From the NCBI RefSeq assembly GCF_025526975.1, contig NW_026515672.1, positions 124,001 to 188,000 of the forward strand: a stretch of 64,000 nucleotides of DNA, written 5' to 3'. The number at the start of each line of letters is the position of its first letter. Within the stretch, counting starts at the first letter, position 1. The notes beneath the pieces were generated by a model. The model worked only from the letters and a program-made list of their open reading frames with translations, was not told the DNA's origin and ran no database searches. Both the position numbers and the translations under genes were made by a program. The stretch comes from Fimicolochytrium jonesii (taxonomy: Eukaryota). This document shows, in pieces, positions 28,892 to 64,000 of the stretch.

Positions 28892-31800
28892 ATGAGCCTC
28901 CGTTCCAAACCCTCCACCTCCTCCCTGCAGTCCAGTAACGAGCTAAGTCTAGAGTCCTTCTACCTCGAGCCCGGCGCTCCAGAAGGCAACAAAGCCGGTG
29001 GCTTCCTCACCAGTCTATGGAGAGCCGCGGTCGGCAGGGCGACGAACGAGGCTGCCGCTCGAACACTTCAGAATGCTTCCACGACGGGGCATAATGCCGT
29101 GGGCACACCGCAACGACGGAAGGTCGAGGAATGGCAGGCGGGGACGAGCGTGGTTCGGTATGAGTCGCCCGGACGGGACGAGCTTCTCGAGAAAGGCAGC
29201 TTTGTAGACTCGGTTGATAACGCCGACAGCGAGCTCAGTGCGTCTGAGACGGCCAGTCAGGCGTCGACTCCGAACATTGACACGACCATGTCGGAGGTGT
29301 TGTCGGATGACGTGGAGAAGAACAAGTCGTCGTTGAAGCTTATTCGGAGGATGCGGAATATCGGGTCGACGGGGATTACGAAGGATTTTTGGATGCGGGA
29401 TGATAAGGTGAAGGAATGCTATGAGTGTAAGCAGGTCTTCACTACGTTCCGCCGGAAACATCACTGCCGCATCTGTGGTCAGATCTTTTGTCACAAATGT
29501 GCTTCCTCCATCGTCCCTGGAGAAAGATTTGGATACCCAGGAGAAATGCGTGTGTGCAACTTTTGCCTGAAGATCATGATCGACTACAAAAACAACGACT
29601 CGATGGGATCCAAGGAGCATTCGCCTCTATCCCAGAGTGCAGTCAGTCGGAAAGCATCTTGGAAGCCGATACAAACGTCACCTACCGCTACGGAACCCAG
29701 GATCGCCATTGCCTCTCCGGGATCGCACAACCCGCCGTCATCCACCAAGCCATGGCCGGGTTCACCATCGCCCGATGGATCGTTGGAAGGCTTCAGGAAG
29801 ATGCTGGGATCCTCGTTGTTCCAGAACAAGCGGGTGACGATCACAGAGGATGCAATGCTGGAGACTCCAGGCTCCTCGTCAGATCCATTCCGCGGGAAGC
29901 TCCCGCAGAAAGAGCGAACCTCTGAGGATCCCAGCTCTGAGAACTTGATTGATCCCGAAGCCATAGTGGAGTACGTGACGGACGATGAGAGCGAGGTGGG
30001 ACTTGCCGATCTGTGGGCCACCAGCCCCTTCTTAAACTTTCCCTCCAACACGGGAATCAGCACCGTATCGGTAGTCGCGACACCGCTGAAAAACATCCGT
30101 TCACTCAACGGCGTGGCGGATTCACCCATCATCGACAGCGATACGTGGGACTATGGGGAGGCCAACCAGCGGAAACGCAGGACACACCGCCGCGTTTCCC
30201 GGAACGACGAGCTCCGCCAGGAGTTTTCAAAGGACAAGGCCAAGCGGCGGAATGTCTCCAGCGGACATCCCCGACCGTCTCGATACTCTGCAAGAGCGAT
30301 CAGCAAGCAGCTGAGCAAATCCACGCTTGTCAGTCAAGCAGGGACGCTGGTGGCGCCGTCGACCGAGGACTTGTCTATGGTGTCGAACGGGTCGCTGTCA
30401 CGTCATCGCCGGACGGACTCGGGCTTGCCTACGGTTGAGCTCAATGCATCGTCTCTCGAACATTTGCGGCGGCTGCTGGGGCAAGTCTTATCTGAGTCGG
30501 ATATCTCTCCCATCGAAGGATGGGAGAGCGTTCTTATGAAGATCATGCTACGGGTATGCGACAGCATCCAACCCGATGTCCGTGGCGGGGACTTTATCGA
30601 TATTCGGCACTACGTGAAGATCAAAAAGATCCCCGGGGGTCTCCCCGCAGATAGCGAGTACGTATGCGGGGTAGTCTGTTCGAAGAACGTCGCGCACAAG
30701 AAGATGATACGGCCCATAGCGAACCCAAAGATCATGCTTCTGACATTCGCGCTCGAATACCAACGCGTGGAGAATCAGTTTCTATCACTGGAACCGCTGT
30801 TGGCGCAGGAACGGGAGCACTTAAAGAATCTCGTTTCCCGCGTCGTCGCCCTTCGCCCCGACGTTGTTCTGGTGGAAAAGACAGTCTCGCGGATAGCACT
30901 GGAATATTTCCTCGAAGCCAACGTCGCCATTGCGTACAACGTCAAAGGCTCCGTCATTGAAGCCCTTGCCCGATGCACGAAGGGGGATATCATCGCTTCC
31001 ATGGACAAGCTTGCGTTAGAACCTAAGCTGGGAACATGCGAGTCATTCAATATCAAGACGTTTATGAACTCGTCGATTCCTGGATATCGTAAGACGTTCC
31101 TGTACTTTGCTGGGTGTCCCAAGGAACTCGGATGCACCATCGTGTTGCGCGGGGGAACCCAGGCCGAGTTGGCAAAGATCAAGCAGATTGCGGATCTGAT
31201 GGCGTTTGTTGTTTACAACCTCAAATTGGAGACGTTTTTGTTTAGGGATCAGTTTGCGATGGAGCCGCCTACCGACTCTGAGCCGGTGGATAAGTTCTTG
31301 TTGGAGGGATTGCCCGACAGCGCGGGAGCTGTCCCGGCAGTCAAGAAGACCGCCGACGCAACGCCGCTGTCGAAGGCGATTCGGCCTTATGAGGAGATTA
31401 TCCTCTCAGCGTCACCTCACGTCAAGTTTCCACTGCCGTACCTATTGATGAGGTTGAAAGAAGAAGAACAACGCATGCTGCTCTCGAACAAGAAGCAGGT
31501 GGCGGACAAAGCCAAGCAAGAGCTCGCAAAGGAAGGCGATGCAGACAACGAAGTCCGGGAATACATCAGGACCATCCTCGATCAGTCCAGCGGATGGCTC
31601 TCCTCCATCGAGACCCGCGCAGGAATCAACAACCTTCTCGAGAACTCAAGCAGCCTGAGCCCGTTCGGTCATCAGTCCATCACGGTACTCTACTCGAACG
31701 TCTGCGCGGCTACCAGCGTACCCTGTCAAGCCCCTGAACAGCACCTCATCGAGTACTATCGCGGGACAGACATGACATTGGGGCAGTACCTCGAGGAACT

Positions 31801-34800
31801 CTGCTGCAATGCAGAATACCTATGCCCCGCTAAACTATGCGATCGGAAAATGCTCATGCACTTCCGATCGTACGCTCACGGCCAAGGACGCGTCAACGTG
31901 GTGATTGAGGAGTTCGCGAGCCCTATGCAGGGGATGGAAGACGTCATCCTCATGTGGAGTTTCTGCAAACTGTGCAACCAAGTCACGCCTGTCGTGCCCA
32001 TGTCCGAAGAGGCGTGGAAGTACTCGTTTGGGAAATACCTGGAGCTGGCGTATTACCATGCGAAACTGGGGTGTCGGGCGGATATGTGTCCTCATGATAT
32101 CTTCCGCGACCATATCCGGTACTTTGCGCTTAAGAATTTGGCGGTGAGGTTTGAATATGAGATGATCGACTTGCTGGAAGTCGTCGTTCCGCCGAAACGG
32201 CTGCGCTTTGTTCCTGAGATCCCGGCGCGATTGCGGCAGCAGGATTATGAACTGCTGAATGAGCAGATTGTGAATTACTACGACTCGTTGTCGGAGCGCA
32301 TCAAGACGTTTACGTTCGATCTTGTGCCGCAAGCAAAGGCGCAGAGTGCGAAAGATGCCATCTCGGATATGGGAAAGAAAGCGAGCTCTGAGAAGAAATA
32401 CATCTTGCAGCTGTTGCAACAAACGCTGATCACCAGTGCGGCCACAGATACCTTGGCATTCAACGGAACGCTACGGGTGCTTCAGGAGAAGGTTGTCCAG
32501 TGGGACCTAGATTTCGCTGCGTTTGTGAGGCGATTCTTGCAAACCGATACCAAAGAGATTCGAAGATCAACGGCCGCGCAGCTGAAACGTATGTTCGTGG
32601 ACGGGACAGGGGTGCAAAGGAGCGGCTTGGCAGGCCTACCTGAAGATACTGGGGCTCTGGCTATCGAGATGGGGCTCAACCCGTCTTCGCTCGTATTGTC
32701 TTTCCCCGAGCTCGGCAAATCACCGTCGCAGTCAACTACTCCATCATTTGGAAGAATGATGCAGACTCGGTTCCCCGATACGTCACCCGGATCACCGCAA
32801 TCCCGAATCAATAGGCGAATGTCGATGAAGTTGATGAAGGATTTGAGGGTCAAGCGCGCACCCCTGGAAATCGTACCAAGTTTGAGACCGTTATCGTCCA
32901 CCCCGGATTATTTCCCCGGTACGAATTATTTCGAGAATGCAGACGGTTCAGCGAACCGGACGAAGCCAGGCAGCCAGGCAGTCCTGGAGAGTCCCTTTGA
33001 CGACGACGTACCCGACATCACGATCGAGTCAATCGGCGGACCATCGATGTGTCGGTATGCGTCCGATGAAGATGAGGACGATCTCGCGATCGGGAACAAC
33101 GTGGACCAGTGGTCGGAGAACGATTCCGACATGCCGCCACTGAACAACGTCCTGGCAGAATCCATAGAAGACGTGCTCACCGCTGACATCCAAACTATCT
33201 CCCTGACGCCAGCAAAGCAGCGCCCGGCCTCCATCTCATCGCACAACACCTCCACGAATCAGAACATCAAGGATGATGAGGAGGATATGCCGTTAGAATG
33301 GAACATCATCTCTGGCGTCGCTGGCGAAACCTCCGAGCATCTCCAGTCCTCCACAGACCAACTCGATCTCAACAAGGAACTTTCGCCCAGCGCCGCAACC
33401 AGTGGTGAACGCACCTCTATCATGAAAACCCTGACGAGCCTCTGGACCGGGAACGCCGCCAACCTCGCCCCATTGCAGTGCCCGTTAGCACCCACCGAGC
33501 ATATCTTCCCCGACTCGAATGTCGTGGTGAGGGAAGAAGAGCCAAGTTCGATCATTGCGTTTACGTTGGATTCGAAGCATTACAAGGAGAAGCTGCAAGG
33601 ATTGGGTAGAGGTGGGGAAAGCGATGGGAGTGCGGGCGTGAACGGGAATGCCGGTGTTGAGGATATGACGGCGAACCCGAGGGTGTCGGTGGAGTTTGAC
33701 GATGCGCAAGGTGCGGCGGTGGGGATGGAGGAGACGTTGCTGCGAGGGACGGGGACGCATATCCGATATCGTAAGTTGAAAAACCGTACGCCGTGCCCGA
33801 CTCCTCTCATCACCTGCTGACGGGTGGGTGAAACAGAATTCTGGGATGGGCCGACGCGTATGAACTGCAAGATCTTCTTCGCGGAGCAATTTGAAGCGTT
33901 GCGGAGGAACTGCGGTGTTGACGACAAGTTCGCGCAGAGCCTTGCGCGTTGCATGCGTTGGGATGCTTTGGGGGGCAAATCTGGATCAACGTTTCTGAAG
34001 ACGAAAGGTGTGTACCATGTTGGTATCCATGAGACGCGTGAGATACCTGACACCGACCCTGCAACCCTTCCGCAGACGATCGCTTGATCATCAAGCAACT
34101 GTCACGACTGGAACTTGATGCCCTGTATAAGTTTGCGCCGGCTTACTTTGAGTATATGTCGCAGGCCATCTTTCATGAGGTTAGCGCATCTGATAGGTTA
34201 CAAGCTCGCAAACTCATCCATTCATCCATCAACTAATACGCATTCAATCGGAACAGCTCCCAACGGTCCTAGCCAAGATTTTCGGCTTCTATCGCATCTC
34301 CTACAAAAATCCAACAACCGGCCGATCCATGCGGTTTGATTGTTTTGTGATGGAGAACTTGTTTTACGAGCGCACTATCTCACGGGTATGTGTCACCGTC
34401 ACTCCGAGTTGATGGGCTTTTCCTCGAACTTAAAGCAGCGATACTGACTCCCCTTCTGTTTTGCAGATATTCGATCTCAAGGGCTCCATGCGTAACCGGC
34501 ACGTCCAATCAACTGGCCGTCAGAACGAAGTGCTTTTGGACGAGAATTTGGTGGAATGTAAGTTTCGCACGCGTCTTACTTCTGTGCTCCCATCACGAAA
34601 CGACTCCTGACCCCTATTTCTTTTCTGCCATCTAGTCATCTACGAATCACCGCTCTTCATCCGTGAACACTCCAAAAAGCTACTGCGTGCATCCGTATGG
34701 AACGACACGCTTTTTCTGTCGAAACTGAACGTGATGGACTACTCGTTACTTGTGGGCATCGATGCGGAGCGGAACGAGCTTGTTGTCGGGATTGTTGGTG

Positions 34801-38899: not shown

Positions 38900-41250
38900 T
38901 CATCCAAATACGTTGAAAAAATCTACTTTTAACTGAGGCACAACTACTACCTTTGTTGGCTCGATGCCTCGATGATGCATCAATCGAGAACGGCCAAATC
39001 GTAAGAGAACGGCTCGTGGGTTGGATGACAAGGCGGCCTCCTGTATCACCGGAGGTAAATGCATAAATGCGCTAATGATGTCGGGATATTGCCGCGGGAC
39101 ATTGTCGGCCCCCCCCCCCCCCACGTCGCTCCAAAATGAGATTTCGATGTCTCGCAGCTCGTCTCCTTCCAGAATAACCTCTACCGCGCGTACAGTGCCT
39201 TATCATCGAGCTGACTTTTCCACCACAGCTCGACGATAGGGGACGGTAGGTCGGCATCCCCGATATCCCAAAAAAAAATCCACCAGATGCACTATGGCGG
39301 CTGTCGATGTCGATGCCGTCGTGGGTCCGCCAGGCTTCTGCGCCCAGAAGCCCACGTCTGACCTGGATCCCCGGGGAGGCAGAACCAGGCCAGCCGAACG
39401 ATTCTGTGCGCGAAGCCAGATCCCGGCGATTCCAAATGTCGTGCCACACCGCCACCTATGGCCAGGCGAAAAATTCAGGGCTCAGATGCTTGCGAACACG
39501 TACAACTGACGGTTCTGCGCCAGGTCGCAGAGAATTCTGTAGTCTTCAGATTGACGACAGGAGTTGGCGGGGTAGCTTTCGGTTCCTCAATTCCGGTGAG
39601 GTCTTAAGTCGTCGATTAGGGAAGGAATCAGTCGGCCGGTCCTTGCACTCACCGCTAAATTCGACAAGCCCCATCTTGTCAGGCGTTTTGGAAGATCTCC
39701 TGAATCGGCAGATGACACCAATACGGTCTTCACAGCCACACCTGAAAGCGGTGGCTGGCCATACCGCCTACGATGTACCCTGCTTCCGGAGACTTCCGGG
39801 CTCGTAGGCTCGGTCGGTTTCAGTGCCGCTCTCCCTCTCCTCCTCGGATTCAGACCCGCTAACCTCCATGGAAATGATTGATGAGTTCATTCTCTCGAGA
39901 GGCGGTTACTGGCCATTTTTCGCCATCGTAAGATCGTAAGAAAAATATCTGCCCTGCTCATCCTGGTATGATGTCAGCGAAGTCATTGAGGAAACCCTTC
40001 ATGAAACCGTTCACCCATACCCATGTTGGAAGCCACAACCGACAGTCCTCATCTATCATCATCTCTCCGTGTCCGTTGTCTTTTGCAGAATTGAAGGGCA
40101 CGATGTGTTCGGCATAGAACTTGGAGACCCACACTCAGCGTCGCTGGGGACGGTGCTCGGGGGCACGGCGTCAGAGCAGTGCACGTCGGGCAGCGCACTT
40201 GCGCCCTCCGGTTGCTGTCGACGACAAACACTCCATTCTCGCCGACGTCTCGCCATATAGGTTGCATGTGAATAGGCGCAGGTCTTTCCTCGTCCGAAAT
40301 CTTGATATCGGGTTCGGCCTTGACGATCCAACGTTGGTAAGCGACGTGATAGGTTCGTTCTCTTGACAATGAACAAAGAACAGGCGGCATCCGTGTACAG
40401 CGCGTGGAAACCTTTCTGCCGGTGATAGTTTTTTACGTCGACGATGTGGAGGTTCATGTATCTGGCTCGAGTTGGTGTCACATGTTGGCGGGCGGGTTCC
40501 GCCATGTGTCCGATACTACCCCTGTTGCAAGTATTGACGCCAGTGAAAACAACGAGTTTACGCTCCTCACCAATTACACCGTCCGTGGTCGAGCAGCAGG
40601 TGGTGTGCGATCGGATTTGAAGAGGCGGAGCGCGGTTCGGAGAGTGTGAGCGCGGTAAGGGCTTATGATTTGGCAGTCGGGGTCGGCGTCGTCGGTTTCA
40701 ATTGCTTCGGTGTTCATTTCGGCGAACAGTTGACAGAGAAGATCCACTTCGAAAGGGTTATAGAGTGAAGTCGGATTTTCGGCGTCGAAGAATTCTCGGT
40801 TATCCCCATAAACTCCGAGGACGGCAAAGCCTCAAAGCCACGCGTCGTTAATGTCTCCAATACTTCCGCCCAAACTGATTCGTACCGACCGTGCTCGATG
40901 GGGTCCGGGTGCGCCATTCTTCTTGCAGAGCTGGTGTCGCCTTCATTCGTGTTTTGAAGATTTCGTAGTTGTCCGTTCAGGAAGAGGTAAATGATCCTGT
41001 TGGGCACACTCGCGGCCCAACCGACGGGGCCGCCACTGAAGCTGTCAATCCCACCAGCTTTGCGGCTTCCTCAGGGCCCCCAACTTGTTCTGCCAATAGT
41101 TCTTTGGGCAGCCCGAGAGATATCCCCTTCGACTCCATTGCCCTAAGCCTTTCAGAAGCAAGGATGTCGGAGGTCGCTGCACTCCTCATGGCACCCATGA
41201 CTAACACTAAATATTGGTGTTCTATGTTCCATGTGAAGAGGGAAGGGGGA
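38900..41250 (-). pseudogene. Decayed coding-like fragments within the accessory island
   Basis: Several protein-like minus-strand stretches broken by stops and frameshifts; no recognisable family. Confidence 0.35.
39977..40180. repeat. ~200-bp imperfect direct repeat, copy 1 (copy 2 at 42841-43041)
   Basis: Shared blocks such as CCCATGTTGGAAGCCACAACCGACAGTCCTCA.CTATCATCATCTCTCCGTGTCCGTTGTC and GGGGGCACGGCGTCAGAGCAGT. Confidence 0.9.
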
Positions 41251-41259
41251 AGGGGGAAC

Positions 41260-42825
41260 TCATGTTTTCCTCTTCTTGGCTGCCCTTCCCGCGTCAGCCT
41301 GCCTCTTCTTCGCCACACCCTCCGCGATCTTTCTTGCTTGGGCTTCGTCGAAATCGGGAAAGGTGTTTTGCTCCAGAGCGACCTGCTCGAGGCACAAGGC
41401 GATCGCAGAAGTGCACCCGCGTTTGTGACCGCCGAAGCGGTTCCACAAACCCCACTCGGGCTGGCCGTCGATCGAAGATACGTAGAAGGCAACCCTCCCA
41501 GCCTCGGTGGCGCAGGTCAAGTTGCGAGGGACGTACGCCTGAGGATGGTGTTCCCCGGCAGGCGCGATCTCGACCCGTACGATGCAGGCCCGCAGGTCCT
41601 CCCAAGCGGATTCCGAAAGCTGCTCCAGCACCTTGTCCTTGAACAGAGTTGCTTTCGTATTCCACAGCGTGTATTGGCGGCTCGCTTTCGTCGGGCCGCT
41701 TTTCGTGAGGACCTCCCGATGGCCGATCTTGTATTGGTCGAGCTTCTTGAGCCGCTCTTCGTGCGCATGAAGCGCGAATCCACGAAGGGCGTTCAGGAAG
41801 CCTTCGGTTGCTTGATCGGGGTGGTCGTGGAACCACGAGGAGAGGCTGTCCAGGCCGAGATCGCTGAGTTCTCGGTGGGTCCTTTGGGAGGACAGTCCCC
41901 GCCTCGCTTGATGCTCCGGCAAACTCGACCAAGCCGCCATTGCCAGGGAGTCATTGAGCCCAAGGTAGGGGCCATCGGAGAGGTCGAGTCCGGCGGCGGC
42001 AGCAGCAGCATCGACCGCTGCGCTCCGGTAAAAGCGGCCGATGACTTGGACGGCCGTTTCGAGGACGAGGACCTCGCCGTCGGAGAGCGACTTGGCAGGG
42101 AACGCGGCGACTCTCTTGACGGTCATCCTTTCCACGTCGACCTCGTGGCATCTTCGGTACGTGGCCTGGTCCTTGCGCTTACGGTACGCGGGGCTCAGAT
42201 GCTCGTTGGCGCGGTGGACGAGGCCGCGCTTGCCGGTAGCAGAACCAGCGTAACCGTGGTTGCCTCGAGGCACAAAGACGTAGAGACCCCACCCCTTGTG
42301 CTCCCACGAGACGGCTGGCAGGCCGGCGCCGTTGGTCGGGCAGCCGGCGGCAAAAAACGAACGACCCGCATCGTCGAGGAAGGCGTCCAGCTTGGTGGCG
42401 ATGGCGTTGGAGACGACATCGTCGTCGGTCTCTTGGATGGTCGCACCGCCGGTCAAGACGGCGACGACGGCGGGCTCGTGCGGGGATTGTTCTGCACGGA
42501 CAAGGGCTCGCAAGGTCTTGATGGCCTTGGCGGCACAAAGACGTAGACACCCCACCCCTTGTGCTCCCACGAGGGGCGGCAGGCCGGCGCCGTTGGTCGG
42601 GCAGCCGGCGGCAGAAAACGCACGACCGGCATCGTCGAGGAGGGAGTCGATCTTGGTAGCGATGGCTTCGGAGACAGCTTCGTCGTCGGTTTCTTGATTG
42701 GTAGCACCGCCGGTCAAGACGGCGACGACGGCGGGCTCGTACGGGGATTGTCCGGCGCGGACAAGGGCCCGCAAGGTCTTGATCGCCGTGGTCAAAACGA
42801 CGAAAGCAGCGGATGGCGCTGACAT
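41260..42825 (-). CDS. Intronless GIY-YIG-like endonuclease with a duplicated N-terminal module
   Basis: WGLYVF (motif I), GYAGSA (II), HRANEH (III), VLE (IV) and YLGLN (V) occur in GIY-YIG order; basic NLS-like C-terminus AKKRKT. Confidence 0.65.
   Translation of the reverse strand: MSAPSAAFVVLTTAIKTLRALVRAGQSPYEPAVVAVLTGGATNQETDDEAVSEAIATKIDSLLDDAGRAFSAAGCPTNGAGLPPLVGAQGVGCLRLCAAKAIKTLRALVRAEQSPHEPAVVAVLTGGATIQETDDDVVSNAIATKLDAFLDDAGRSFFAAGCPTNGAGLPAVSWEHKGWGLYVFVPRGNHGYAGSATGKRGLVHRANEHLSPAYRKRKDQATYRRCHEVDVERMTVKRVAAFPAKSLSDGEVLVLETAVQVIGRFYRSAAVDAAAAAAGLDLSDGPYLGLNDSLAMAAWSSLPEHQARRGLSSQRTHRELSDLGLDSLSSWFHDHPDQATEGFLNALRGFALHAHEERLKKLDQYKIGHREVLTKSGPTKASRQYTLWNTKATLFKDKVLEQLSESAWEDLRACIVRVEIAPAGEHHPQAYVPRNLTCATEAGRVAFYVSSIDGQPEWGLWNRFGGHKRGCTSAIALCLEQVALEQNTFPDFDEAQARKIAEGVAKKRQADAGRAAKKRKT
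42269..42792. repeat. Two-copy tandem duplication (~261-263 bp) inside the GIY-YIG ORF
   Basis: Units begin GGCACAAAGACGTAGA at 42269 and 42532; the protein repeats AIKTLRALVRA.QSP.EPAVVAVLTGGAT.QETDD...LDDAGR.F.AAGCPTNGAGLP. Confidence 0.92.
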
Positions 42826-46823: not shown

Positions 46824-49091
46824 CTATTTCTTCAAAAACCCAAACATGCCCTTCCCCTCCTTAACCACCTGCGGAGCCAACGCCGGCATCCCCGGATTCT
46901 CCTCCCTCAACTCCCTCAACCGTTCCTCGGCCCTCTTCTCCCCCCTCCCGCTTGCAAGCTGATACCACACCACCGCCTTCTCCAAACTCTTTTGGCATCC
47001 GATCCCGGCCTCGCAAAAGAACCCGATGGCGTATTGGGATTCGGCGTGGTTTTGTTTGGCCGCCCGGTACGTCCAGGCGTAGGCTTCGGATTCGTTCTTG
47101 GGGACGAGGGGGGGGAAGCCGTGGAGGTACCAGCCCGCCAGGACGAATTGTGCCTCGGGGTGCCCGTGTTCGGCGGCGCGGCCGTACCAGTACAAGGCTG
47201 CTTGCTGTTGTGTGGAGGGGGGGGGGGGGGGGGGGGTCAGCATGTGCTCAGAACTCCATGGGGTGTCCTTCATAATAACGGTTGACAACTTCAAACGTCC
47301 ACATACCAGATCCTTAGCACACCCCAACCTCCCAAACTCATAACAGCTCGCCAACACATTCTGCGCCGGCGGATACTCCAACTCACTCGCCTCCTTATAC
47401 AGCCCCAACGCATACCCCTCATCCTGCTGAATATGCGGCGGCACGCCCTCCTCATATATCTTCGCCAGCTCATACAGACACTCCGGGTGCTCCGTATCCG
47501 CCACAGCTGCACCGCGCTTGAACCACATGACCGCTTTCCGGACATCGCGTTTGGTGCCAAGGAGACCCTGGTATTCGATCATCCCGAGCCGGTATAGGGC
47601 GGGGCGGTAGCCGGCTTGTGCGGATTTGGTGTAAAAGTCCATGGAGATCTTTGTGGATTTTTTGGTGCCGGCGCCTTTTTCAGAGAGGACGCCGAGGAGG
47701 TACATGGCGCCCGGGTGGGAGCGTTTGGCGGCGGCGAGGAGTTGGGGGTGCGCGAGGGTGTATTGGGTGTCTTCGAAGTAGGCTTGTCCGAGTGTGAACT
47801 GAAAGGAATCATACTGCATCAGCAGTGCTACAATGTCCTCATTTCGCAAAAATGGTCTCACCATGGCATCCGGATTCCCCGCCTTGCTAAGCTCCTTCAG
47901 CAGCGCAAACGCCTCCTCGCTCAGCTTATCCTTCAACGCATTATCCGTCGTCTTCCCACTCTCATCCAACAGATACTTTGCGAAATCAAACCTCAGCCGG
48001 TCATCCCCGCTCTTCAAAGCGTTCATTCTGTACATCTCGAGCGTTTTCTCGAGAGAGACTTTGGAGACTTTCGAGCCTGATTGCTGCTGTTGATTCCCTG
48101 CCGCGTTGGGTTTGGGTGGTGGGCCATTTGGCCGTTTCACGGAGTAGCTTCGAAACGTTGGTTTGGGCCCCTCTGGAGGCGGCCCACTGATTTCCATACT
48201 CGACAGGGCTTCGGAGAGCCGCAGACTGTCCGTTGACTCGCTACCAGAGTCAACTGCTTCTGAGTGCGCATGGGAGGGTATCGACGGGTTAGACGACGGT
48301 CTGGAAAGACGGGCCGAGTTCCCGCTGAGCCTTTGTTGATTGAGATTCTCGGCAGATACTGATGACGGTCTCGATCCACTGACGCCGGGCGATAAGCTCG
48401 AGTTCGAATGCGCAGATCGTGGGCCATCCCGATCCGGATGTAGCGCTTGGTTCGGGGAAAGTCGATGGTTTGCTGGTGGTGGAGGACGGCTCATATGCGC
48501 TGGATGTGGTTGGGCCGGCTGCGGTTGTCCCGGATGTGCTTGTCCCGGATGTGGCTGCCCAGGATGCATAGGCGGCCTCATGTATTGCGCTGGATGCATT
48601 GGAGGAGGCCCGTTAGGATCATAATAACGGTCTGCCAGTGGTGGCGCGCCATAACCTGGCCCTTGCGGCGGTGGAGGTCGAGCATACTGGGGTCGTGGGT
48701 GATATGCTCCATTTGGTGGTGGCGGCCCGTACGGCTGCCCATGTGGTGGACCATGTGGCGGTCCGTAAGGCGGCCCTTGCGGTGGTGGGCCGGGGTAATG
48801 ATGTGGGCGTTGTTGTTGCTGCTGCTGCTGAAACTGCGGTGGTGGTGGGCCGGGTCTGTATTCCATAGGCGGCCTTCCCGGGGCGTGTGGCTATTGAATT
48901 GAACCAGTAAGGAGCTGGAAAAGTGAATGCAGATACGGGTCTGCCAAACTTACCTGCGCATATTGCATTGGTGGGCCATGGTTAGAATACAAAGCAGAAC
49001 TTGCTGATGGCGGAGCCTGCTGGGGGCGGTGGTGTTGGGGTTGAGGAGCCTGAGAAAACCCCCCAGCGGGGTCCCGTTCCTGCTCAGACAT
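46824..49091 (-). CDS. Sel1-repeat protein, chitin synthase activator Chs4/Skt5-like
   Basis: Pro/Gln-rich N-terminus, LEMYRMNALKSGD..RFDFAKYL, multiple SEL1 repeats (AVMWFKRGA, CYEFGRLGC, LAGWYLHG, SQYAIGFFCEAGIG). Confidence 0.8.
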
Positions 49092-58022: not shown

Positions 58023-60317
58023 TCACCTCCCGCTCCCAACCCCATTCAAAGCCCCCCTACTCCCCCTCGCGCTCCCCGCCCCCCCACCGCCGATCTCCGG
58101 CAACTTATTATACCGCTGCTTCAACGGGATCCTCCCCCCCGTCACCGCGATCCGCGACGACGTGGACGATGAGGACGATGTGGTGCTTGTAGTGTAAGCG
58201 GAGTCTTTGAGCTTGAGTTTCAGGTCGAGGGCCTTATCCAGCAGCTGGATTTTCCGATCGAGGTGGAGGGTTGATGAGAGGGCGTGGAGGAGAAACGGGG
58301 GAGAGCAGAGGGAATGGAGAGAATAGAGAACGGTACCTGGAGTTTCTGGGCACGTAACGCCTCGTTCTCGTGCTGGAGTTTGGCGCACCGCTCTTCGGCG
58401 TGCCGGAGGGCGTCGTTGGATGCCTATGGGGTGGGGGGGGGGGGGGGGGGGGGAGTGGTGCGTAGATGTTGGTGATGTTGCTCGCCCTCGCAGGAAGGAC
58501 AACCCCCATTGCGAACGGCAGGTCCCTTTGCTACATCATCATTTTTCGTCCATCTATTTGTCCTCTGCCATCCTCTCGCACAGCCCCCCCTCTCACCATC
58601 CCTCCCCGTCCCCAAAACGAATCCGCAAACTTCCCAGAAAAACGTCCCTTACCAACTTCGCTTCCGCCTCCTCCAGCTTGTTCCTCAGATACCCCAACGT
58701 AGTCGTCAGATCCTGCACCTCCTTGAACAGCGCCCGTTTCTCCAGCGTCGCGGTCTCGTAGTCTTGCGTGAGTCGGGCGTTGGCGGCGGTTAGGTGGTCG
58801 ATCTGGGCGGCTTGCTGCGTTTGGAGGGTTAGGCGAGATTGGAGCTGCCGGGGGGAGGGAACATCAGTTTTTATTTTGTCATTTGCGGGCAGAAGCTATG
58901 GGAACTGGTTATGTATGCTTTTATGTATGGGGGAGACTGCACACACCTCTGCGTTTTCCCGATTGAGTGCGTCCAATCTGACTTCCAGCGCCCGTAAGAT
59001 ATCCAATGTGGGGTCGGTCCCGTCCGCTGATGTCGCGCCGCCGCGGGTGTACATCAGCGTATGCGGTTGCGTTCTTTCGTCGGGGTTTGTGGCTGAGAGG
59101 GCGTCCATGGAGGTTGAGGATGTGCTGGTTAGGAGGTCAGCGGAGGGGAGGGATCCGGTAAGATGCGGTGTCTGCTCATGGTGGTCGAAATTAGATGCGA
59201 GGTTGGGATTCTCGGGGCCGGTACTCGATTCTATCTGCTGTGATATCTCAATCGGCGGTGGGTCCAATAGCGCAGAAATGTCTGGGCAGCTCGGGGCGTA
59301 CTCCAAAGCCCGTTGTGATATGAGCTTCGGCGCATCTGCACCTTGTAAGGCCTCTGGAGCTCGGGCGTCTCCTCCATGTTCCAATGCCTCATAAGAGGTG
59401 TCCTCATATCCAGGTACGGGTGCACTCTCGGTCGCTTCTATTCCTGTCACATGAGGAATGGCTTCAACATCCTCAGAAGCCAGCGCCTCGATCCCGTTTG
59501 GGTGCACTGGCTCATCGATCTCCACCGCTTGCGCTCCATCTCCCGCCGCCGGCTGCTCCCCCGCCTCATTCACAGCTGATGGTTCAGCCAGGTCTGAAGA
59601 GCTCTGTGGTGCGTTTTGCGGTGCTTCGGCTTTGTTTGGCTCCAGCCCCTCTTTTGTGGCCTTTTCCTGAGATTCAGAAGGAGCCTCCCCTGCCCTATCC
59701 TCATCCCGGCTTTTCCCATCAACATTTACGTTCTCCGCATTTGCGGTTGCTCCCCCACTCTCCACTGTGGGCCTCTCCGCAGTTTCCGCCGCCGTTGCTT
59801 CCGCCTCTCCAGCATCAGAATAGACCCCGGTACCATCCTCCCCATCGTCATCATTTATCAGATCCGATGATGCCTGGTCCTCATCTCGATCCACGACATC
59901 CAGACCTGCAGACGACTCACTCGATCCTGCTTCCTGTAACGGGACCTCCCCGGAGACAATCGCCTGTGCATCTTCTGTATTCTCATTCGACCCCTCAACC
60001 GGAAATTCATCGTGCCTTGTCGGGAGACCAGCAGGATCTCGTTCCGCACCGGATCGCTGTTCCACCAGAGCGTCTGATTCCCGTGCATCGCCGCTATCCA
60101 GACCACCCGTCTCCCCACCCTCCTGGCTCTGATCATTCAGCACCGGCGGCTGCAAATGTCCTCCAGACCCATCTTCCTCAGCGCGGCCAGGCGTGTGAAG
60201 ACGACTCGAGTCTGCATCCGTCGGGTCGCCGTCCGCGTCTGCGCCTGCTTTGTCGTCGTTCGCGGCGTAGTCGTCGTCAAGCGGTTGCGACGGTGCTGCC
60301 GAATGGGTATCCGTCAT
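58023..60317 (-). CDS. Uncharacterised protein: long acidic disordered N-terminus plus C-terminal coiled coil
   Basis: Long Asp/Glu-rich ORF followed by spliced heptad-rich exons (ILRALEVRLDALNRENAE, LLDKALDLKLKLKD). Confidence 0.6.
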
Positions 60318-60838
60318 GTCTTTCTGTAACAATTCGGTTGCAGTCGGCTGGTGGTTTGGGGCGTGGGGTGGTAAGAGGGGTGTGCCCAAGCGACGGTCGG
60401 TATTTGTAGGTTTTTGGACGTTGCGGCGTGAACGGCCGTTTGAGGGTTTGAACCCTTGCTCCTACCTGTCGATTGTACGTAAGCGGGGTTTGAGTGACAT
60501 CAGCGACGCGTTTCCTGCGCGCGCGGAGGTCCTGCCAGAACCCGATCAAACTAGCAGACGGGCAGGCAGCACCGTACCCGTCTCGCGCTTTCCTTCGGAT
60601 CACAGGGAATGGCTCTCGATAATGGTCCCTGGCAACATGTTCTCATCGGAAGATGTCTCGATAGAAGTTACGCAAAGAGCAACAGGTTTCACCTCCTATA
60701 ATATGGTGATATAAGAAAGCGCTGCATAAAGAAGATCCACTACTCGCCCCTCTAAGAAGATTGCAAAAGTTCCTGCTAGTGCTGTCCAGTCCAAAGTCCC
60801 CCCAAAAACTACGACTACCTTCTGCTAGCCTTGCCCGC

Positions 60839-62848
60839 TCACTTCAGCTGGAAGCCTTGAAACTTCTTCCCACCCCACGGGTCCCCAACCCTATGACTTC
60901 CCCCAAATCCACGCTCCCTCACATTGCCAAACCACTCCCTCAACTCATATCGGTGCATGTAGCCCAGAACGGCGGCGGCGATTGCCGTGAAGATGAAGAT
61001 CACAATCACGGCGACGCCGCCTGAGGAAACTCCGCCGTGGCCGCCGTCGCTCGAGTCGCCAATCTTGGCGGTCGCGCAGTCGGGGAAACCAGTTGGTGAT
61101 GTGAAAGTACGGTCGTAGACGTAGGCGGCGCAGTCGTCGGCTGTCAGATGCACTGCGTTTCCTGGAGAGGGTAGAGACAGTGAGTTGATACATTGACTAT
61201 TCACTGCATTTCAGCAAGTCTGTGAACGTACCCTCCAGCGGAATATGGCGGAAGTATAGATTATCTTCGATAATTTTGTCCGGGGATTTGTATGTGCCTC
61301 CAAGGACCTGGATGAGGTTCCTCAGCACGACCTCCGGGATGGCCGGGGCATTGTAGCGCGTGTCTGGAAAAGAGACGAGAGGAGATCCATTGAATACCAC
61401 GTACGAAACAAAAGCCAGTTTGCGAACATGTAAATTCAGAACTCACAGCTCAGGCCTCCAGGTAGTCTCAAATTATCGGGCTTGAAGATTTGCGCTGTGG
61501 CGGTCCCTCTCCACCAAGGAAAATTCACTCCTTGACTTGCATCAAAGCCATAGAAGCCCATAATAGCTCCCCATTTCAGTTCTTGCTTGCCCGTATCGGT
61601 GTCATCAATGAACGTATTAGCGTTCGGGAATATGCTAAGTGTTGCATCCTTAGTACTACCGGCCGGTACCAACACGCGGGTCGCGCCAGCGTCCGTTATG
61701 AGTTCTGTTTCGTATTTCCCGTCCCCTGAGAAAGATGAAGCTGGCGTCTCGGCTTTGTCCGCAGCCACCCAGAGAACTGTTTTCTGAGTCTTCGCGGCGG
61801 ACTTTGCGTATGAGGCCATGCACTGATATGGCGCCAGAATCTGGTTCTCGAAAATAGATGTTGCCTTGCTTTCCAGATTGAAGAAAAGGGAGTAGAATTT
61901 GATCCACTCGGCGCGAGCCAAGGGGGTCTGTTCAGCCAGCATCGCTTCGGCGACAGACACTACCGGTACGCCGTCGGGGCCGGCGCTTCCAAACACCACA
62001 GAGGTGTTCGATGGGATCCCAGGTTCGCTATAGGGTATCGTCTGGCCCGCATTGACCTGACCGAGAAGACACGGCGACGAGACGTCGGGCACGTCGAATT
62101 GGATGTAAGCAATCTTGGATAGCTGTTCCAAGCGCTGCAAGAACCCCACAGCGTACACCTCCTTCAGGCCCAATGCGCTTTTGTCAATTGGAATTCCAAC
62201 ATCCGTAGGGACCGCTGTGGCCGAATTGCACAAATGCAGTTTATATGCCTTCTGCTTTCCATCGGGAAACGTAACGGTGGCTAATTTGTAGTTTTTGTTG
62301 TATGTGACCTGGAAGTTCTTTGCATGCTCTGTCAAGAGAAATCGGTTTAAGTTCCCGGCTTTGTGTCCATACATCTTCACGCTTCTGCCTTCGTTGGGTG
62401 CGCTCCCTCCTAATACTTCGGCACTGCGTCGTCATGGCCGTGGACGACTACCATATAACTTGGACGCCTCTCTACATGCGACTCGCGCGCGCCTTCCTAC
62501 AATTGACGACATCAAAGCCTTCCTACAATTGACGACCCTTCCCAACCAACCCTGCCACATCTCACAAGCAGCTGCCACATATTGCTCCTACAACTCCCAA
62601 TTCTTCTTGCGTCTCCGCCAGAGCCCAACAGACCCCAGCGTCTCCACCTGTTCCACTAGCAGTGAACGACACTCACTAATTTCAACTCGGTTTGCCGCAT
62701 CGGCGAAGTAATCCTTATTCGCATCAAACTTGTTCGGTGATTCAATTGGCCCACCGGTGCAAATCGGCGTTGTGGTTTGCGCATTCACGAAAGCCGAAAC
62801 GCTCGCAAGTGCCAACAGGCACAGAGACTTGAGATGGAGTCGTAACAT
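60839..62848 (-). CDS. CBA1: CBA1-like cobalamin/periplasmic-binding-fold protein with signal peptide and C-terminal TM anchor
   Basis: Signal peptide MLRLHLKSLCLLALASVSAFVNAQ; DYF, FQVTYNKNYK, SSPCL, EQTPLARAEWIKFYSLFFNLESKA..IF, YQC, PEVVLRNLI, YFRHI; TM GVAVIVIFIFTAIAAAVLGY; introns including 62329-62676. Confidence 0.7.
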
Positions 62849-63645
62849 GGTGACCGTATTGGTTGGCGACGGTTGTCTCCTGCGAGGATTGTCCATGCAC
62901 AGGTGCGGAAACGGAGGAACGGAAAAGACAAGCGCAAGAAGCGCAAAGCTCGCAAAGCGGGAGACGACTCGTCACGTGATTCAACAAGTCGCCTCCTCCC
63001 TCTCTTCCACCCTTCCACCACAGCTTCCACCACGCTCAGCACAACCATCTAACCGTCTGATGCCCACCGGCGCCACGGATGCTATCAGTTGGTGCTCAGA
63101 GCCTTAGGAAGAATACTCACTACAGGGTCGACTGACGCGCAAGTCCGTCTCTGAAGATGCTCTCGGGATTACCTACATGTGCTTTCCAGCTGGAGGCAGT
63201 CACCATGGCGATGCGCTAAGATTCGGTCGGAGCGTTGGCGATGAGGCATCGACGAGGGCGCTGAAGGGTTCAGGCCTGAACAAGAAGTGTGGAAGGAAAC
63301 CGTCCCCCACCCAGAGATATTGAAGGTGGGGACAACGTCTTCCTCCACGAAAACCTCGTACAGTTCTTTCGCTCTCCACACCAGTTGCAAAAGAACAAGT
63401 CATCCTTCAAAAAGGTCCACCTCGTCTCAAAACTCGCTCTCGACTTCTTGAGCGTGGTACGATATAAAGAAACAACAGCTGAATAGACCATGGCAATAGC
63501 TCACCTTTCTGACCTCACAAAGGCACGAAAAAAAGAGCACTTCGTGAATCCAAATGTGAGTGAAAGTCGGTTGCGTTATCTTTGCGTTTTCACACCTTGC
63601 TTGTATTGCTTCTAGCGTGAAACTGATCCGTCTAGGACTCGTCCA

Positions 63646-64000
63646 ATGGAGCAGATGCAAAAGCTCCGAATTAGTCTAGTATCGCTGGATTGGCTGAGAC
63701 CGAAGGATCCGCGGATTGCGCTTGGACATGCGTCGATCAAAGCTAAACTGACACAAAGCCAATTCGCCGAGCGCTTGGACGTCAAGGATCACTCCTTCAA
63801 CGTCAATCCAAGCCAATCGCTTCCGGCAGACTTGCTGAGCACGGCTGAAGAAGCAGCTGATGAGATCTTGGCGAGCAAGCCGGATCTTGTGGCATTTGGT
63901 GGATATGTTTGGAACGAATCTTATGTACAAAATATTCACAAGATCTTGGCGACTTCAAACCCGCGAAACACCTTCAACATACTAATGGGTCCGCAGACTT
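63646..64000 (+). CDS. B12-binding-domain protein, probably the N-terminus of a cobalamin-dependent radical SAM enzyme; runs off the window
   Basis: Open frame from ATG 63646: LRISLVSLDWLRPKDPRIALGHASIKA...EILASKPDLVAFGGYVWNESYVQNI...ILMGPQ. A possible in-frame upstream exon at 63490-63555 with intron 63556-63615. Absent from the ORF track because no stop codon falls inside the window. Confidence 0.7.
   Translation, partial: MEQMQKLRISLVSLDWLRPKDPRIALGHASIKAKLTQSQFAERLDVKDHSFNVNPSQSLPADLLSTAEEAADEILASKPDLVAFGGYVWNESYVQNIHKILATSNPRNTFNILMGPQT

What the first reader, a model, noticed from the sequence alone, without database searches (positions are those of the whole stretch)
63490..64000. B12-binding radical-SAM-like gene in a fungus, possibly intron-containing, missed by the ORF track
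The frame stays open for 118 codons to the window edge and can be extended by an in-frame GT-AG spliced first exon (63490-63555), which would show it is a native nuclear gene rather than contamination. The LVSLDW.RPKDP..LGHAS N-terminus looks like a distinctive subfamily. A eukaryotic cobalamin-dependent radical enzyme, whether from HGT or ancient retention, has no obvious known substrate here. The usual GGP motif appears as MGPQ.
Basis: partly seen in the sequence, partly recalled or inferred. Interest (0 to 1): 0.72.

Follow-up and report, generated by a model that had tools for sequence, protein, structure and literature searches.

The report
B12 radical SAM gene in chytrid
The window ends in the start of an intact chytrid-fungus gene whose protein has the fold and motifs of the vitamin-B12-binding radical SAM enzymes, a type discussed in the literature I searched only for bacteria and archaea; it likely uses B12 to methylate a still unknown target, and it lies head to head with a likely B12-uptake gene.

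Summary
Bases 63646-63999 are codons 1-118 of an uninterrupted 491-codon gene, recovered as protein P0001 from a 1.22 Mb contig. The window is nuclear DNA of a spizellomycete chytrid.

The protein has a CX3CX2C radical SAM core after an N-terminal cobalamin-type Rossmann domain. Its AlphaFold model (pLDDT 87) matches TokK, CysS, TsrM, MgmA and OxsB best. W89 aligns with TokK Trp76, the residue under the cobalt.

No NCBIfam model reaches its cutoff. This is an uncharacterised subfamily found in chytrids, Blastocladiomycota, Glomeromycotina, dictyostelids, a diatom and some Myxococcota. Many members carry mitochondrial-presequence-like N-termini.

The proposed upstream exon (63490-63555) and 60-nt intron are the only in-frame splice solution and have good signals. 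No homologue supports them and no RNA data were available, so they remain unproven.

New here: the divergent neighbour (about 60839-62848, minus strand) is a spliced, signal-peptide-bearing, membrane-anchored CBA1/BtuF-like gene, likely for B12 uptake.

Most likely function: a cobalamin-dependent radical methylase with an unknown substrate. Papers I searched count only MetH, MCM and RNR II as eukaryotic B12 enzymes.

The parts
63646..64000 (+). 5' part (codons 1-118 of 491) of the B12-binding-domain radical SAM gene. It encodes most of the Rossmann-type cobalamin domain, including D15/W16, K20-D21-P22, W89 and M114-G115-P116-Q117.
   Evidence: ORF. 100% identical to the first 118 aa of P0001. 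Pfam domains. Conserved residues. Alignment to TokK and CysS.
63490..63555 (+). Candidate first exon, or an upstream ORF. 22 codons starting at an ATG in strong context (gaccATGg).
   Evidence: GC3 is 0.41 against 0.55 for the main ORF. No homologue has a matching N-terminus.
63556..63615 (+). Candidate 60-nt intron, GTGAGT...TAG, holding the in-frame stop. An alternative acceptor at 63634-63635 follows a CTGAT branch-like site and would put the upstream ATG out of frame, making it a 5'-UTR intron with a uORF.
   Evidence: Verified introns of the same window are 63 nt and about 102 nt (GTGAGA/GTATGT ... CTGAT/CTGAC ... CAG).
62849..63645 (.). Region of about 800 bp between the two divergent start codons; a presumed shared promoter and 5'-UTR region.
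   Evidence: Coordinates. No Rfam family matched at E<=1 in 62300-64000.
60839..62848 (-). Divergent neighbour: a CBA1/BtuF-like (Peripla_BP_2-like) gene. Tentative model: exon 1 62848-62677 (signal peptide); intron 62676-62329; exon 2 62328-61447; intron 61446-61364; exon 3 61363-61232; intron 61231-61162; exon 4 from 61161, with a C-terminal membrane helix.
   Evidence: Sequence and ORFs. Atlas: 22 of 30 nearest clusters carry PF01497. 7 of 9 rows of A3 hit PF01497, best E 7e-12. The ExxxxxxxFFNxE and VxW motifs sit at the spacing of the conserved CrCBA1 residues listed in PMC10828217.

Best explanation
The window ends in the first 118 codons of an intact, native chytrid gene for a 491-residue radical SAM protein with an N-terminal cobalamin-type Rossmann domain, which is predicted to work as a cobalamin-dependent radical methyltransferase on an unknown substrate.

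Shown here:
- The gene is whole and has no intron across the conserved part.
- It has the CX3CX2C cluster motif (C206, C210, C213).
- It has the two-domain fold of class B radical SAM enzymes.
- It has the Trp (W89) that lies under the cobalt in TokK.
- It lies head to head with a CBA1/BtuF-like gene.

Inferred mechanism, by analogy with TokK and CysS:
- The [4Fe-4S] cluster would cleave SAM to a 5'-deoxyadenosyl radical.
- That radical would abstract a hydrogen from the substrate.
- Methylcobalamin in the Rossmann domain would donate the methyl group.
- A second SAM would re-methylate cob(I)alamin.

Also inferred: no conserved neighbourhood was found in nine bacterial loci and the gene is usually present as a single copy, so the substrate is more likely a common cell component (protein, RNA or lipid) than a secondary metabolite.

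Whether translation starts at 63646 or at 63490 through a 60-nt intron is open.
For: - Full product P0001 is 100% identical over the fragment, 491 aa, on a 1,222,081-base contig.
- Pfam Radical_SAM scores 41.3 bits (cutoff 29.5) over residues 201-368. Pfam B12-binding scores 26.1 bits over residues 26-148.
- AlphaFold model: pLDDT 87.1, pTM 0.84.
- Foldseek top hits: TokK E 3e-26 (TMq 0.73), then CysS, TsrM, MgmA, AprD4, OxsB.
- Family profile A2 against PDB: TokK 6.5e-33, CysS 2.5e-32.
- W89 aligns with TokK W76 and M114-G-P-Q with GGPH/GGPQ. TokK Trp76 lies 3.8 A under the cobalt (bioRxiv 10.1101/2021.07.10.451909, passages read).
- The protein keeps 99 of 103 columns that are at least 90% conserved. 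C206, C210, C213, W89 and H215 are at least 97% conserved.
- Native locus: eukaryotic domains in 4 of 15 window ORFs scanned. A named chytrid protein matches the window exactly apart from two in-frame introns.
- The two relatives in the same order that the table lists (Powellomyces, Spizellomyces) carry MetH, CblC and CblD (PMC8085122 Table S1, two rows seen).
- The neighbour gene is CBA1/BtuF-like.
Against: - Pfam B12-binding is below its cutoff for this protein (26.1 against 32.1).
- The first G of the GG(P) motif is M here.
- No NCBIfam family comes near its cutoff; the best is 54.9 against 700.
- TokK's active-site Trp215 is His here, and the large TokK/CysS C-terminal domain is missing.
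- AprD4, which is among the structural hits, has (from my recall, no call) this fold but does not use cobalamin.
- Some class B enzymes are not methylases; OxsB is an example.
- No operon or fusion clue to a substrate was found.
- No expression data.
Confidence: 0.6

Rival explanations
1. It is a cobalamin radical SAM enzyme, but its chemistry is not methylation. It might rearrange, cyclise or contract a ring, as OxsB or BchE do.
For: OxsB is among the structural matches at E 1e-14. The family has its own invariant residues (H215 in place of TokK W215; the D15-W16...K20-D21-P22 block) and a short C-terminal domain unlike the methylases. No NCBIfam methylase model reaches its cutoff.
Against: The nearest relatives by both sequence profile and structure are the methylases TokK and CysS. 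According to the abstracts listed, most characterised class B enzymes are methylases.
Confidence: 0.15
2. The Rossmann domain no longer binds B12. The protein would then be a B12-independent radical SAM enzyme, as I recall AprD4 to be (recall, no call).
For: Pfam B12-binding is below cutoff. G114M lies in the GGP motif. AprD4 is a structural hit with TMt 0.68.
Against: W89, the equivalent of the residue under the cobalt in TokK, is at least 97% conserved. Orthologues reach the Pfam cutoff; Cystobacter scores 41 bits. The named eukaryote hits are of groups reported or generally held to use B12 (for the alga and the nematode this is recalled). The gene sits next to a CBA1/BtuF-like gene.
Confidence: 0.15
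3. Gene-model rival, compatible with any of the functions above. The coding sequence starts at 63490 and a 60-nt intron (63556-63615) is spliced out, adding 32 residues before M1.
For: It is the only in-frame splice solution upstream. The donor is a perfect GTGAGT, and that hexamer is enriched in the window, 43 against 29.9 expected. The 60-nt length fits the verified 63-nt intron and the 70- and 83-nt introns of my tentative neighbour model. The ATG at 63490 has A at -3 and G at +4, whereas 63646 has C at -3.
Against: No homologue has a similar N-terminus. Bacterial members and several fungal ones start within about 10 residues of the LVSLDW strand. The added peptide has 5 acidic residues among 37, unlike the presequence-like extensions of other members. 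GC3 of the exon is 0.41. The best branch-like site (CTGAT) favours an out-of-frame acceptor at 63635.
Confidence: 0.4
4. The gene is a bacterial contaminant, a very recent horizontal transfer, or a decaying pseudogene.
For: GC3 of 0.55 is lower than in several neighbouring genes at 0.65-0.79. No spizellomycete name other than the hidden self-hit appears among the 120 listed hits. Its branch on the tree is long, 1.06 against a median of 0.37.
Against: It sits inside a 1.22 Mb eukaryotic contig next to intron-bearing genes. Its nearest relative is another chytrid, with other early fungi close by, and fungal monophyly is not rejected at p-AU 0.379. The frame is open for 491 codons and 99 of 103 conserved columns are kept. 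The neighbour and the bZIP gene have similar GC3 of 0.59 and 0.55.
Confidence: 0.03

Closest known systems
TokK / ThnK / CysS (cobalamin-dependent radical SAM sequential C-methylases; PDB 7kdx, 9n1b)
   Same: Same two-domain core: a Rossmann cobalamin domain followed by the radical SAM barrel. Shared motifs are YVWN, with the Trp that lies under the cobalt, GGPQ/GGPH, and WET(N/Q)RGCP(Y/F)xCxFC. These are the best hits by profile (E 6.5e-33 and 2.5e-32) and by structure.
   Different: Only 18-19% identity in the structural alignment. About 200 residues shorter, without their large C-terminal substrate domain. TokK Trp215 is an invariant His here. It is not in a biosynthetic cluster. It is eukaryotic. 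The NCBIfam KedN5 model scores 54.9 against a cutoff of 700.
MgmA / MJ0865-type glutamine C-methyltransferase of methyl-coenzyme M reductase (PDB 9ccb)
   Same: A compact class B enzyme of similar size; TM normalised by the target is 0.67. It acts on a protein, which shows that small class B enzymes can modify macromolecules.
   Different: Weak sequence match, E 0.0065. TIGR04014 scores 22 bits against a cutoff of 360. It is an archaeal enzyme of methanogens.
Bacterial B12-binding radical SAM proteins with DUF4080 (function unknown)
   Same: Atlas structural neighbours at TM 0.80-0.81 over residues 7-487. They have the same N-terminal pattern: a strand followed by a P-rich loop and LG..S.
   Different: The window protein and its family give no Pfam DUF4080 hit. 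In the genome scan, the relatives that follow the three orthologue loci (of the kind used as outgroup in the tree) are at most 30% identical.
MetH, methylmalonyl-CoA mutase and class II ribonucleotide reductase: the B12-dependent enzymes counted in eukaryotes
   Same: All would depend on imported cobalamin. Its named eukaryote hits include groups shown to carry MetH (non-Dikarya fungi, Dictyostelium).
   Different: A different fold and different chemistry. This family is absent from those inventories: 'radical SAM' occurs 0 times in PMC2667541 and only in unrelated senses in PMC8085122.
CBA1, cobalamin acquisition protein 1 of algae (for the neighbour gene)
   Same: Signal peptide, a BtuF-like binding-protein core and a single C-terminal membrane helix. 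The conserved ExxxxxxxFFNxE and VxW motifs sit at CrCBA1-like spacing. The paper reports fungal homologues (PMC10828217, passages read).
   Different: The W394-F395-E396 pocket triplet reads WWR here. There is no direct Pfam hit for the window protein itself. The structure model failed at pLDDT 41. The ligand is untested.

Membership tests
Radical SAM superfamily (PF04055) | CX3CX2C motif that binds the [4Fe-4S] cluster | tested here: met
   C206-x3-C210-x2-C213, each at least 97% conserved in 65 sequences.
Radical SAM superfamily (PF04055) | Profile score above the Pfam gathering cutoff | tested here: met
   41.3 bits against 29.5, residues 201-368.
Class B (cobalamin-binding-domain) radical SAM enzymes | N-terminal Rossmann-type B12-binding domain by sequence profile (PF02310) | tested here: inconclusive
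   26.1 bits against a cutoff of 32.1 for the window protein. Myxobacterial orthologues reach 41.0 bits.
Class B (cobalamin-binding-domain) radical SAM enzymes | Two-domain fold superposable on solved cobalamin radical SAM enzymes | tested here: met
   Foldseek: TokK E 3e-26 with TMq 0.73, then CysS, TsrM, MgmA and OxsB. The model has pLDDT 87.
Class B (cobalamin-binding-domain) radical SAM enzymes | Actual binding of cobalamin | not testable with these tools
   Indirect evidence only: W89 is the equivalent of TokK Trp76 under the cobalt. G114M in the GGP motif is a caution.
TokK/ThnK/CysS clade of sequential methylases | Conserved Trp under the cobalamin (TokK W76) in the YVWN context | tested here: met
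   GGYVWNE in the window protein aligns with SCYVWN. The TokK paper says this Trp is not widely conserved in other methylases.
TokK/ThnK/CysS clade of sequential methylases | Active-site Trp215, the large C-terminal domain, and the family model score | tested here: not met
   His215 stands in place of Trp. The protein is about 445 conserved residues long against 645-681. KedN5 scores 54.9 against 700 and ApyD 51.1 against 750.
YgiQ / UPF0313 (the name JGI gives to homologues) | Match to a YgiQ-type family model | tested here: not met
   No YgiQ-type family appears among the Pfam hits or among the 25 NCBIfam hits. The name is only an automatic label.
DUF4080-type B12 radical SAM proteins | C-terminal DUF4080 (PF13311) | tested here: not met
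   No PF13311 hit at E<=0.1 for P0001, P0002 or P0005. There is only structural nearness in the Atlas.
CBA1 (neighbour gene) | BtuF-like periplasmic-binding-protein core | tested here: inconclusive
   The window ORF itself has no Pfam hit. 7 of 9 rows of A3 hit PF01497, best E 7e-12. Atlas: 22 of 30 nearest clusters carry PF01497. Profile against PDB gives IsdE at E 0.019. The AlphaFold model is poor.
CBA1 (neighbour gene) | Conserved residues of CrCBA1 (E206, F214, F215, N216, E218, V253, W255; W394, F395, E396) | tested here: inconclusive
   AEWIKFYSLFFNLE and TVLW fit the first seven in order and spacing. The pocket triplet reads WWR rather than WFE. This was compared by eye with the residue list in the legend of PMC10828217 Fig. 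8; the alignment figure and the supplement could not be read.
CBA1 (neighbour gene) | N-terminal signal peptide and one C-terminal membrane helix | tested here: met
   MLRLHLKSLCLLALASVSAFVNA at the start. VAVIVIFIFTAIAAAVLGY in the last exon. Read from the sequence; no predictor was run.

The most novel reading that the evidence does not exclude
This is one member of a fourth family of vitamin-B12-dependent enzymes in eukaryotes. It would be an old radical SAM methylase, sent to mitochondria in many lineages, kept by B12-using protists and early fungi and lost in animals, plants and Dikarya. In this chytrid it forms a two-gene B12 unit with the uptake gene CBA1, driven from one shared divergent promoter.
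Probability: 0.3. Interest if true: 0.85.

Novelty: new variant of a known kind. Interest (0 to 1): 0.6.

Why it matters
Surveys of B12 use count only MetH, methylmalonyl-CoA mutase and class II ribonucleotide reductase as eukaryotic B12 enzymes (PMC2667541). The study that established B12 use in early fungi examined eight proteins, none of them a radical SAM enzyme (PMC8085122). Two recent reviews of B12-dependent radical SAM enzymes contain no word starting with 'eukaryot' or 'fung'.

An intact, conserved class B radical SAM gene occurs in chytrids, Blastocladiomycota, Glomeromycotina, dictyostelids and a diatom, often with a presequence-like N-terminus. If it truly uses cobalamin, it would add a new B12 requirement to eukaryotic cells, and possibly to mitochondria. 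It would also give radical SAM enzymologists a compact, single-gene target.

The pairing with a CBA1-like gene gives a simple experiment: test whether both genes respond to B12 supply.

The proteins already sit in public databases under generic names. The gain is recognising the family and its context, not finding a new fold.

Tried and rejected
- **Whole genome:** none is held for this window. The 3' part of the gene's DNA, the C-terminal intron question and the organism's other B12 genes could not be examined.
- **RNA:** no RNA holder was listed for 62900-64000.
- **Substrate clues:** none came from context. The Cystobacter locus and eight more bacterial loci share no neighbouring gene. Nine longer homologues have no informative extra domain; the only find was one sub-threshold DUF2325.
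- **Cluster look-up:** a look-up of 10 unnamed homologues gave only one useful name, a partial Alphaproteobacteria MAG protein.
- **Alphaproteobacterial origin:** 0 of 401 genomes sampled from the class of a Rhodospirillaceae MAG matched at E<=1e-40. 18 of 401 Myxococcota matched. An alphaproteobacterial reservoir is therefore not supported in those searched, though that scan had no positive control.
- **Neighbour structure:** the model failed at pLDDT 41.4 and was not used for a fold search.
- **Riboswitch:** no Rfam match in 62300-64000.
- **Earlier scan notes:** nothing on this genome or these sequences.
- **Literature:** searches for a described eukaryotic B12 radical SAM enzyme found none. 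One apparent hit was only a reference-list entry.
- **CBA1 supplement:** the supplement of the CBA1 paper could not be read, so I do not know whether this species or gene is listed there.
- **Ideas rejected:** contamination, and a response-regulator or flavodoxin fold.
Full report
**1. Observation**

One search lists an ATG-started frame at 63646..63999 (+) that stays open for 118 codons to the window edge. An ORF list that ignores frames running off the end would skip it.

Upstream, a 41-codon ORF (63490..63615) lies in the same frame and ends at TAG 63613-63615. GTGAGT at 63556 and a YAG ending at 63615 bracket 60 nt that contain this stop.

I scanned every ATG, GTRNGH donor and YAG acceptor in 62900-63645. 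This was the only combination that joins in frame without a stop, and 63556 was the only strong donor. GTGAGT is modestly enriched in the window: 43 found against 29.9 +/- 4.9 in shuffles.

**2. The whole gene**

The 118-residue fragment finds a 491-residue protein, P0001, at 100% identity and 100% coverage, on a contig of 1,222,081 bases. The conserved part of the gene (residues 1 to about 446) is therefore one uninterrupted exon.

Residues 447-491 are not conserved in 14 aligned homologues. They have pLDDT of about 45-55. They may be a true tail or a read-through into an intron. The DNA past base 64000 could not be obtained because no genome is held.

**3. Host and nativeness**

- Of 15 window ORFs scanned, 4 carry typical eukaryotic domains: FYVE with Cpn60_TCP1 (Fab1-like), bZIP, KH, and Sel1 repeats.
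- The Sel1 ORF's best hit is a protein that NCBI names as from Fimicolochytrium jonesii, on a contig of the same length. Other Spizellomycetales follow at 43-50% identity.
- That protein matches the window exactly except for two in-frame gaps (401 of 457 positions, 55 gaps). The gaps are introns of 63 nt and about 102 nt with GTGAGA/GTATGT donors, CTGAT/CTGAC branch sites and CAG acceptors.
- The window is therefore nuclear DNA of a spizellomycete chytrid, and the radical SAM gene is native whether or not it has an intron of its own.
- Its GC3 (0.55) is lower than that of several neighbours (0.65-0.79), but similar to the adjacent gene (0.59) and the bZIP gene (0.55).

**4. What the protein is**

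Domains:
- Pfam Radical_SAM scores 41.3 bits (cutoff 29.5) over residues 201-368.
- Pfam B12-binding scores 26.1 bits, below its 32.1 cutoff, over residues 26-148.
- The cluster motif is C206-x3-C210-x2-C213.

Family models:
- None of the 25 NCBIfam families listed reaches its cutoff. The best are KedN5 at 54.9 against 700 and TIGR04013 at 53.6 against 251.

Structure:
- An AlphaFold model built from 65 family sequences has pLDDT 87.1 and pTM 0.84.
- Its best PDB matches are TokK (E 3e-26, TMq 0.73), CysS, TsrM, MgmA, AprD4 and OxsB. MiaB and RimO follow well behind.
- The family profile matches TokK at 6.5e-33 and CysS at 2.5e-32.

Key residues, from the direct alignment:
- W89, in GGYVWNE, pairs with TokK W76. 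[quoted passage not shown]
- M114-G-P-Q pairs with GGPH/GGPQ.
- H215 pairs with TokK's active-site W215.

Conservation:
- The window protein keeps 99 of the 103 columns that are at least 90% conserved among the other 64 sequences.
- It deviates at G114M, L187T, L353R and S360T. The median row deviates at 2 columns and the maximum is 9.
- The gene looks functional.

**5. The family and its range**

- The protein collection holds 971 relatives at E<=1e-10 among the 7,997 candidates scored.
- The 50%-identity library holds 184 clusters at E<=1e-30 and 1,808 at E<=1e-10.
- Named hits among the 120 listed:
  - Nowakowskiella (chytrid, 49%)
  - Acaulospora, Diversispora, Rhizophagus, Funneliformis, Glomus and Gigaspora
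  - Allomyces
  - Polysphondylium and Tieghemostelium
  - the diatom Attheya
  - a Panagrolaimus nematode record
  - one Rickettsiaceae MAG
- No other spizellomycete is named among those 120. The gene may therefore be missing from the sequenced relatives. This is an inference from a listing, not a search of their genomes.
The rest were 30% or less.
- 18 of 401 sampled Myxococcota genomes carry it at E<=1e-40. 0 of 401 genomes from the class of a Rhodospirillaceae MAG carry it (no positive control).

Tree and clade test:
- A quick maximum-likelihood tree (70 rows, 474 columns) pairs the window protein with Nowakowskiella (SH-aLRT 81).
- This pair sits in an unresolved basal region with the other fungal sequences, a myxobacterial clade (99*) and an unnamed metagenomic clade of 9 rows (98*).
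- A second clade of 39 rows (95*) holds the dictyostelids, Gigaspora, the diatom, the nematode record and the Rickettsiaceae MAG.
- Holding the seven fungal sequences of the first kind together costs 2.5 log-likelihood units, p-AU 0.379. I chose that group after seeing the tree.
- This is compatible with old vertical descent in fungi. It does not settle the ultimate origin. The outgroup branch is very long, so the root is unsafe.

**6. N-termini**

- Of 153 family proteins that start with M and contain the strand-plus-DW motif, 62 have at least 20 residues before it.
- 37 of those 62 have at least 4 Lys/Arg and at most 1 Asp/Glu. That is the make-up of mitochondrial presequences. No targeting predictor was available.
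- The window protein has only 10 residues before the motif.
That is not presequence-like.

For the spliced exon:
- It is the only in-frame splice solution upstream.
- Its donor is a perfect GTGAGT.
- Its length fits the organism's introns.
- The ATG at 63490 is in a better context (A at -3, G at +4) than the ATG at 63646 (C at -3). The other two starts seen also have A at -3.

Against the spliced exon:
- No homologue supports it.
- GC3 is low.
- The best branch-like site (CTGAT at about 63622) favours an acceptor at 63635. That would make the upstream ATG a short uORF.

I put it at about 0.4.

**7. The neighbour**

The gene on the other strand starts about 800 bp away. Reading the sequence gives this tentative model:
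- Start at ATG 62848, with a signal peptide.
- Three phase-1 introns: 62676-62329, 61446-61364 and 61231-61162, with GTGAGT, GTGAGT and GTACGT donors.
- A last exon with one membrane helix.

Evidence on its family:
- Its main exon has no Pfam or PDB sequence hit of its own.
- In the Atlas, the two nearest clusters are eukaryotic (mostly Streptophyta) hypothetical proteins at 0.95 and 0.93. 22 of the 30 nearest clusters carry PF01497 Peripla_BP_2.
- Eight metagenome relatives at 26-35% identity were found through patterns that include AEWIKFYS, so that motif is shared by construction. 7 of the 9 aligned rows hit PF01497, best E 7e-12.
- The profile touches the heme-binding protein IsdE at E 0.019.

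Comparison with CBA1:
- The paper on algal CBA1 (PMC10828217, passages read) describes a signal peptide, a BtuF-like core and a C-terminal helix.
- It reports homologues in fungi, Amoebozoa and three-quarters of streptophytes.
- It lists the conserved residues E206, F214, F215, N216, E218, V253, W255 and W394-F395-E396.
- The window protein has AEWIKFYSLFFNLE and TVLW in that order and at close to that spacing, but WWR where WFE would be.
- I read it as a likely CBA1-family gene, about 0.75. Its ligand is untested.

Earlier notes of this scan report CBA1-like genes in other early fungi. Those are leads only.

If this is a CBA1-like B12-uptake gene, its place directly beside a B12-type enzyme gene is unlikely to be chance in a genome of thousands of genes. 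This is an estimate; I did not compute it. It is the best indirect support here that the radical SAM protein is tied to cobalamin.

**8. Function**

- No bacterial neighbourhood is conserved in nine loci.
- Nine longer homologues show no informative fusion.
- The closest characterised relatives are radical methylases.
- The two Spizellomycetales listed in PMC8085122 Table S1 (Powellomyces, Spizellomyces) have MetH, CblC and CblD (two rows seen), so a cobalamin supply in this order is plausible.

I therefore commit to a cobalamin-dependent radical methyltransferase acting on a common cellular substrate (0.6 including the identification). The main rivals are non-methylating B12 chemistry (0.15) and loss of B12 binding (0.15).

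**9. Novelty**

- PMC2667541 states that only MetH, MCM and RNR II are known in eukaryotes and never mentions radical SAM.
- PMC8085122 surveyed eight proteins in fungi, with no radical SAM enzyme among them.
- Two reviews of the enzyme class contain no word starting with 'eukaryot' or 'fung'.
- Six further searches found no description of such a eukaryotic enzyme.
- The library lacks most subscription journals, so this is "not found in what I searched".
- The proteins are already deposited under generic names.

Verdict: a real, correctly read finding. It is a distinct and uncharacterised subfamily of a known enzyme class, largely eukaryotic among its named members, here paired with a likely B12-uptake gene.

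Noticed in passing
window 60839-62848 (-): A spliced gene lies head to head with the radical SAM gene. It has a signal peptide, a BtuF/Peripla_BP_2-like core with CBA1-type motifs (FFNxE, VxW), and a C-terminal membrane helix. It is a likely CBA1-family B12-uptake gene, with WWR where CBA1 has its WFE pocket triplet.
   Followed up: partly
window 46827-48197 (-): A Sel1-repeat (Skt5/Chs4-like, 'HCP-like') gene with two in-frame, stop-free introns of 63 nt and about 102 nt. The second intron holds a run of about 20 C. The raw ORF (680 aa) reads straight through both introns.
   Followed up: partly
window 28892-33820 (+): A 1642-codon open frame with FYVE and Cpn60_TCP1 domains, that is a Fab1/PIKfyve-like lipid kinase gene (kinase domain not checked).
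   Followed up: no
window 40969-42546 (+) and 41260-42825 (-): Two overlapping open frames of more than 520 codons lie on opposite strands. Neither has a Pfam hit, so which strand codes is unclear.
   Followed up: no
window 58896-60461 (-): A 500-520-codon open frame rich in Asp, Glu, Ala and Ser, of low complexity, with no Pfam hit. It lies just downstream of the CBA1-like gene.
   Followed up: no
tree; proteins P0129, P0023, P0019: Glomeromycotina sequences fall in two separate clades of the family: Gigaspora with dictyostelids, and Rhizophagus, Glomus, Acaulospora and Diversispora with the other fungi. This suggests two old paralogues or a transfer.
   Followed up: no
L086, L087, L089, L090, L092-L094 (Myxococcota loci): Seven of the twelve best myxobacterial matches are reported with one or two stop codons inside the match. 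This may be an effect of match boundaries or may mean broken copies.
   Followed up: no
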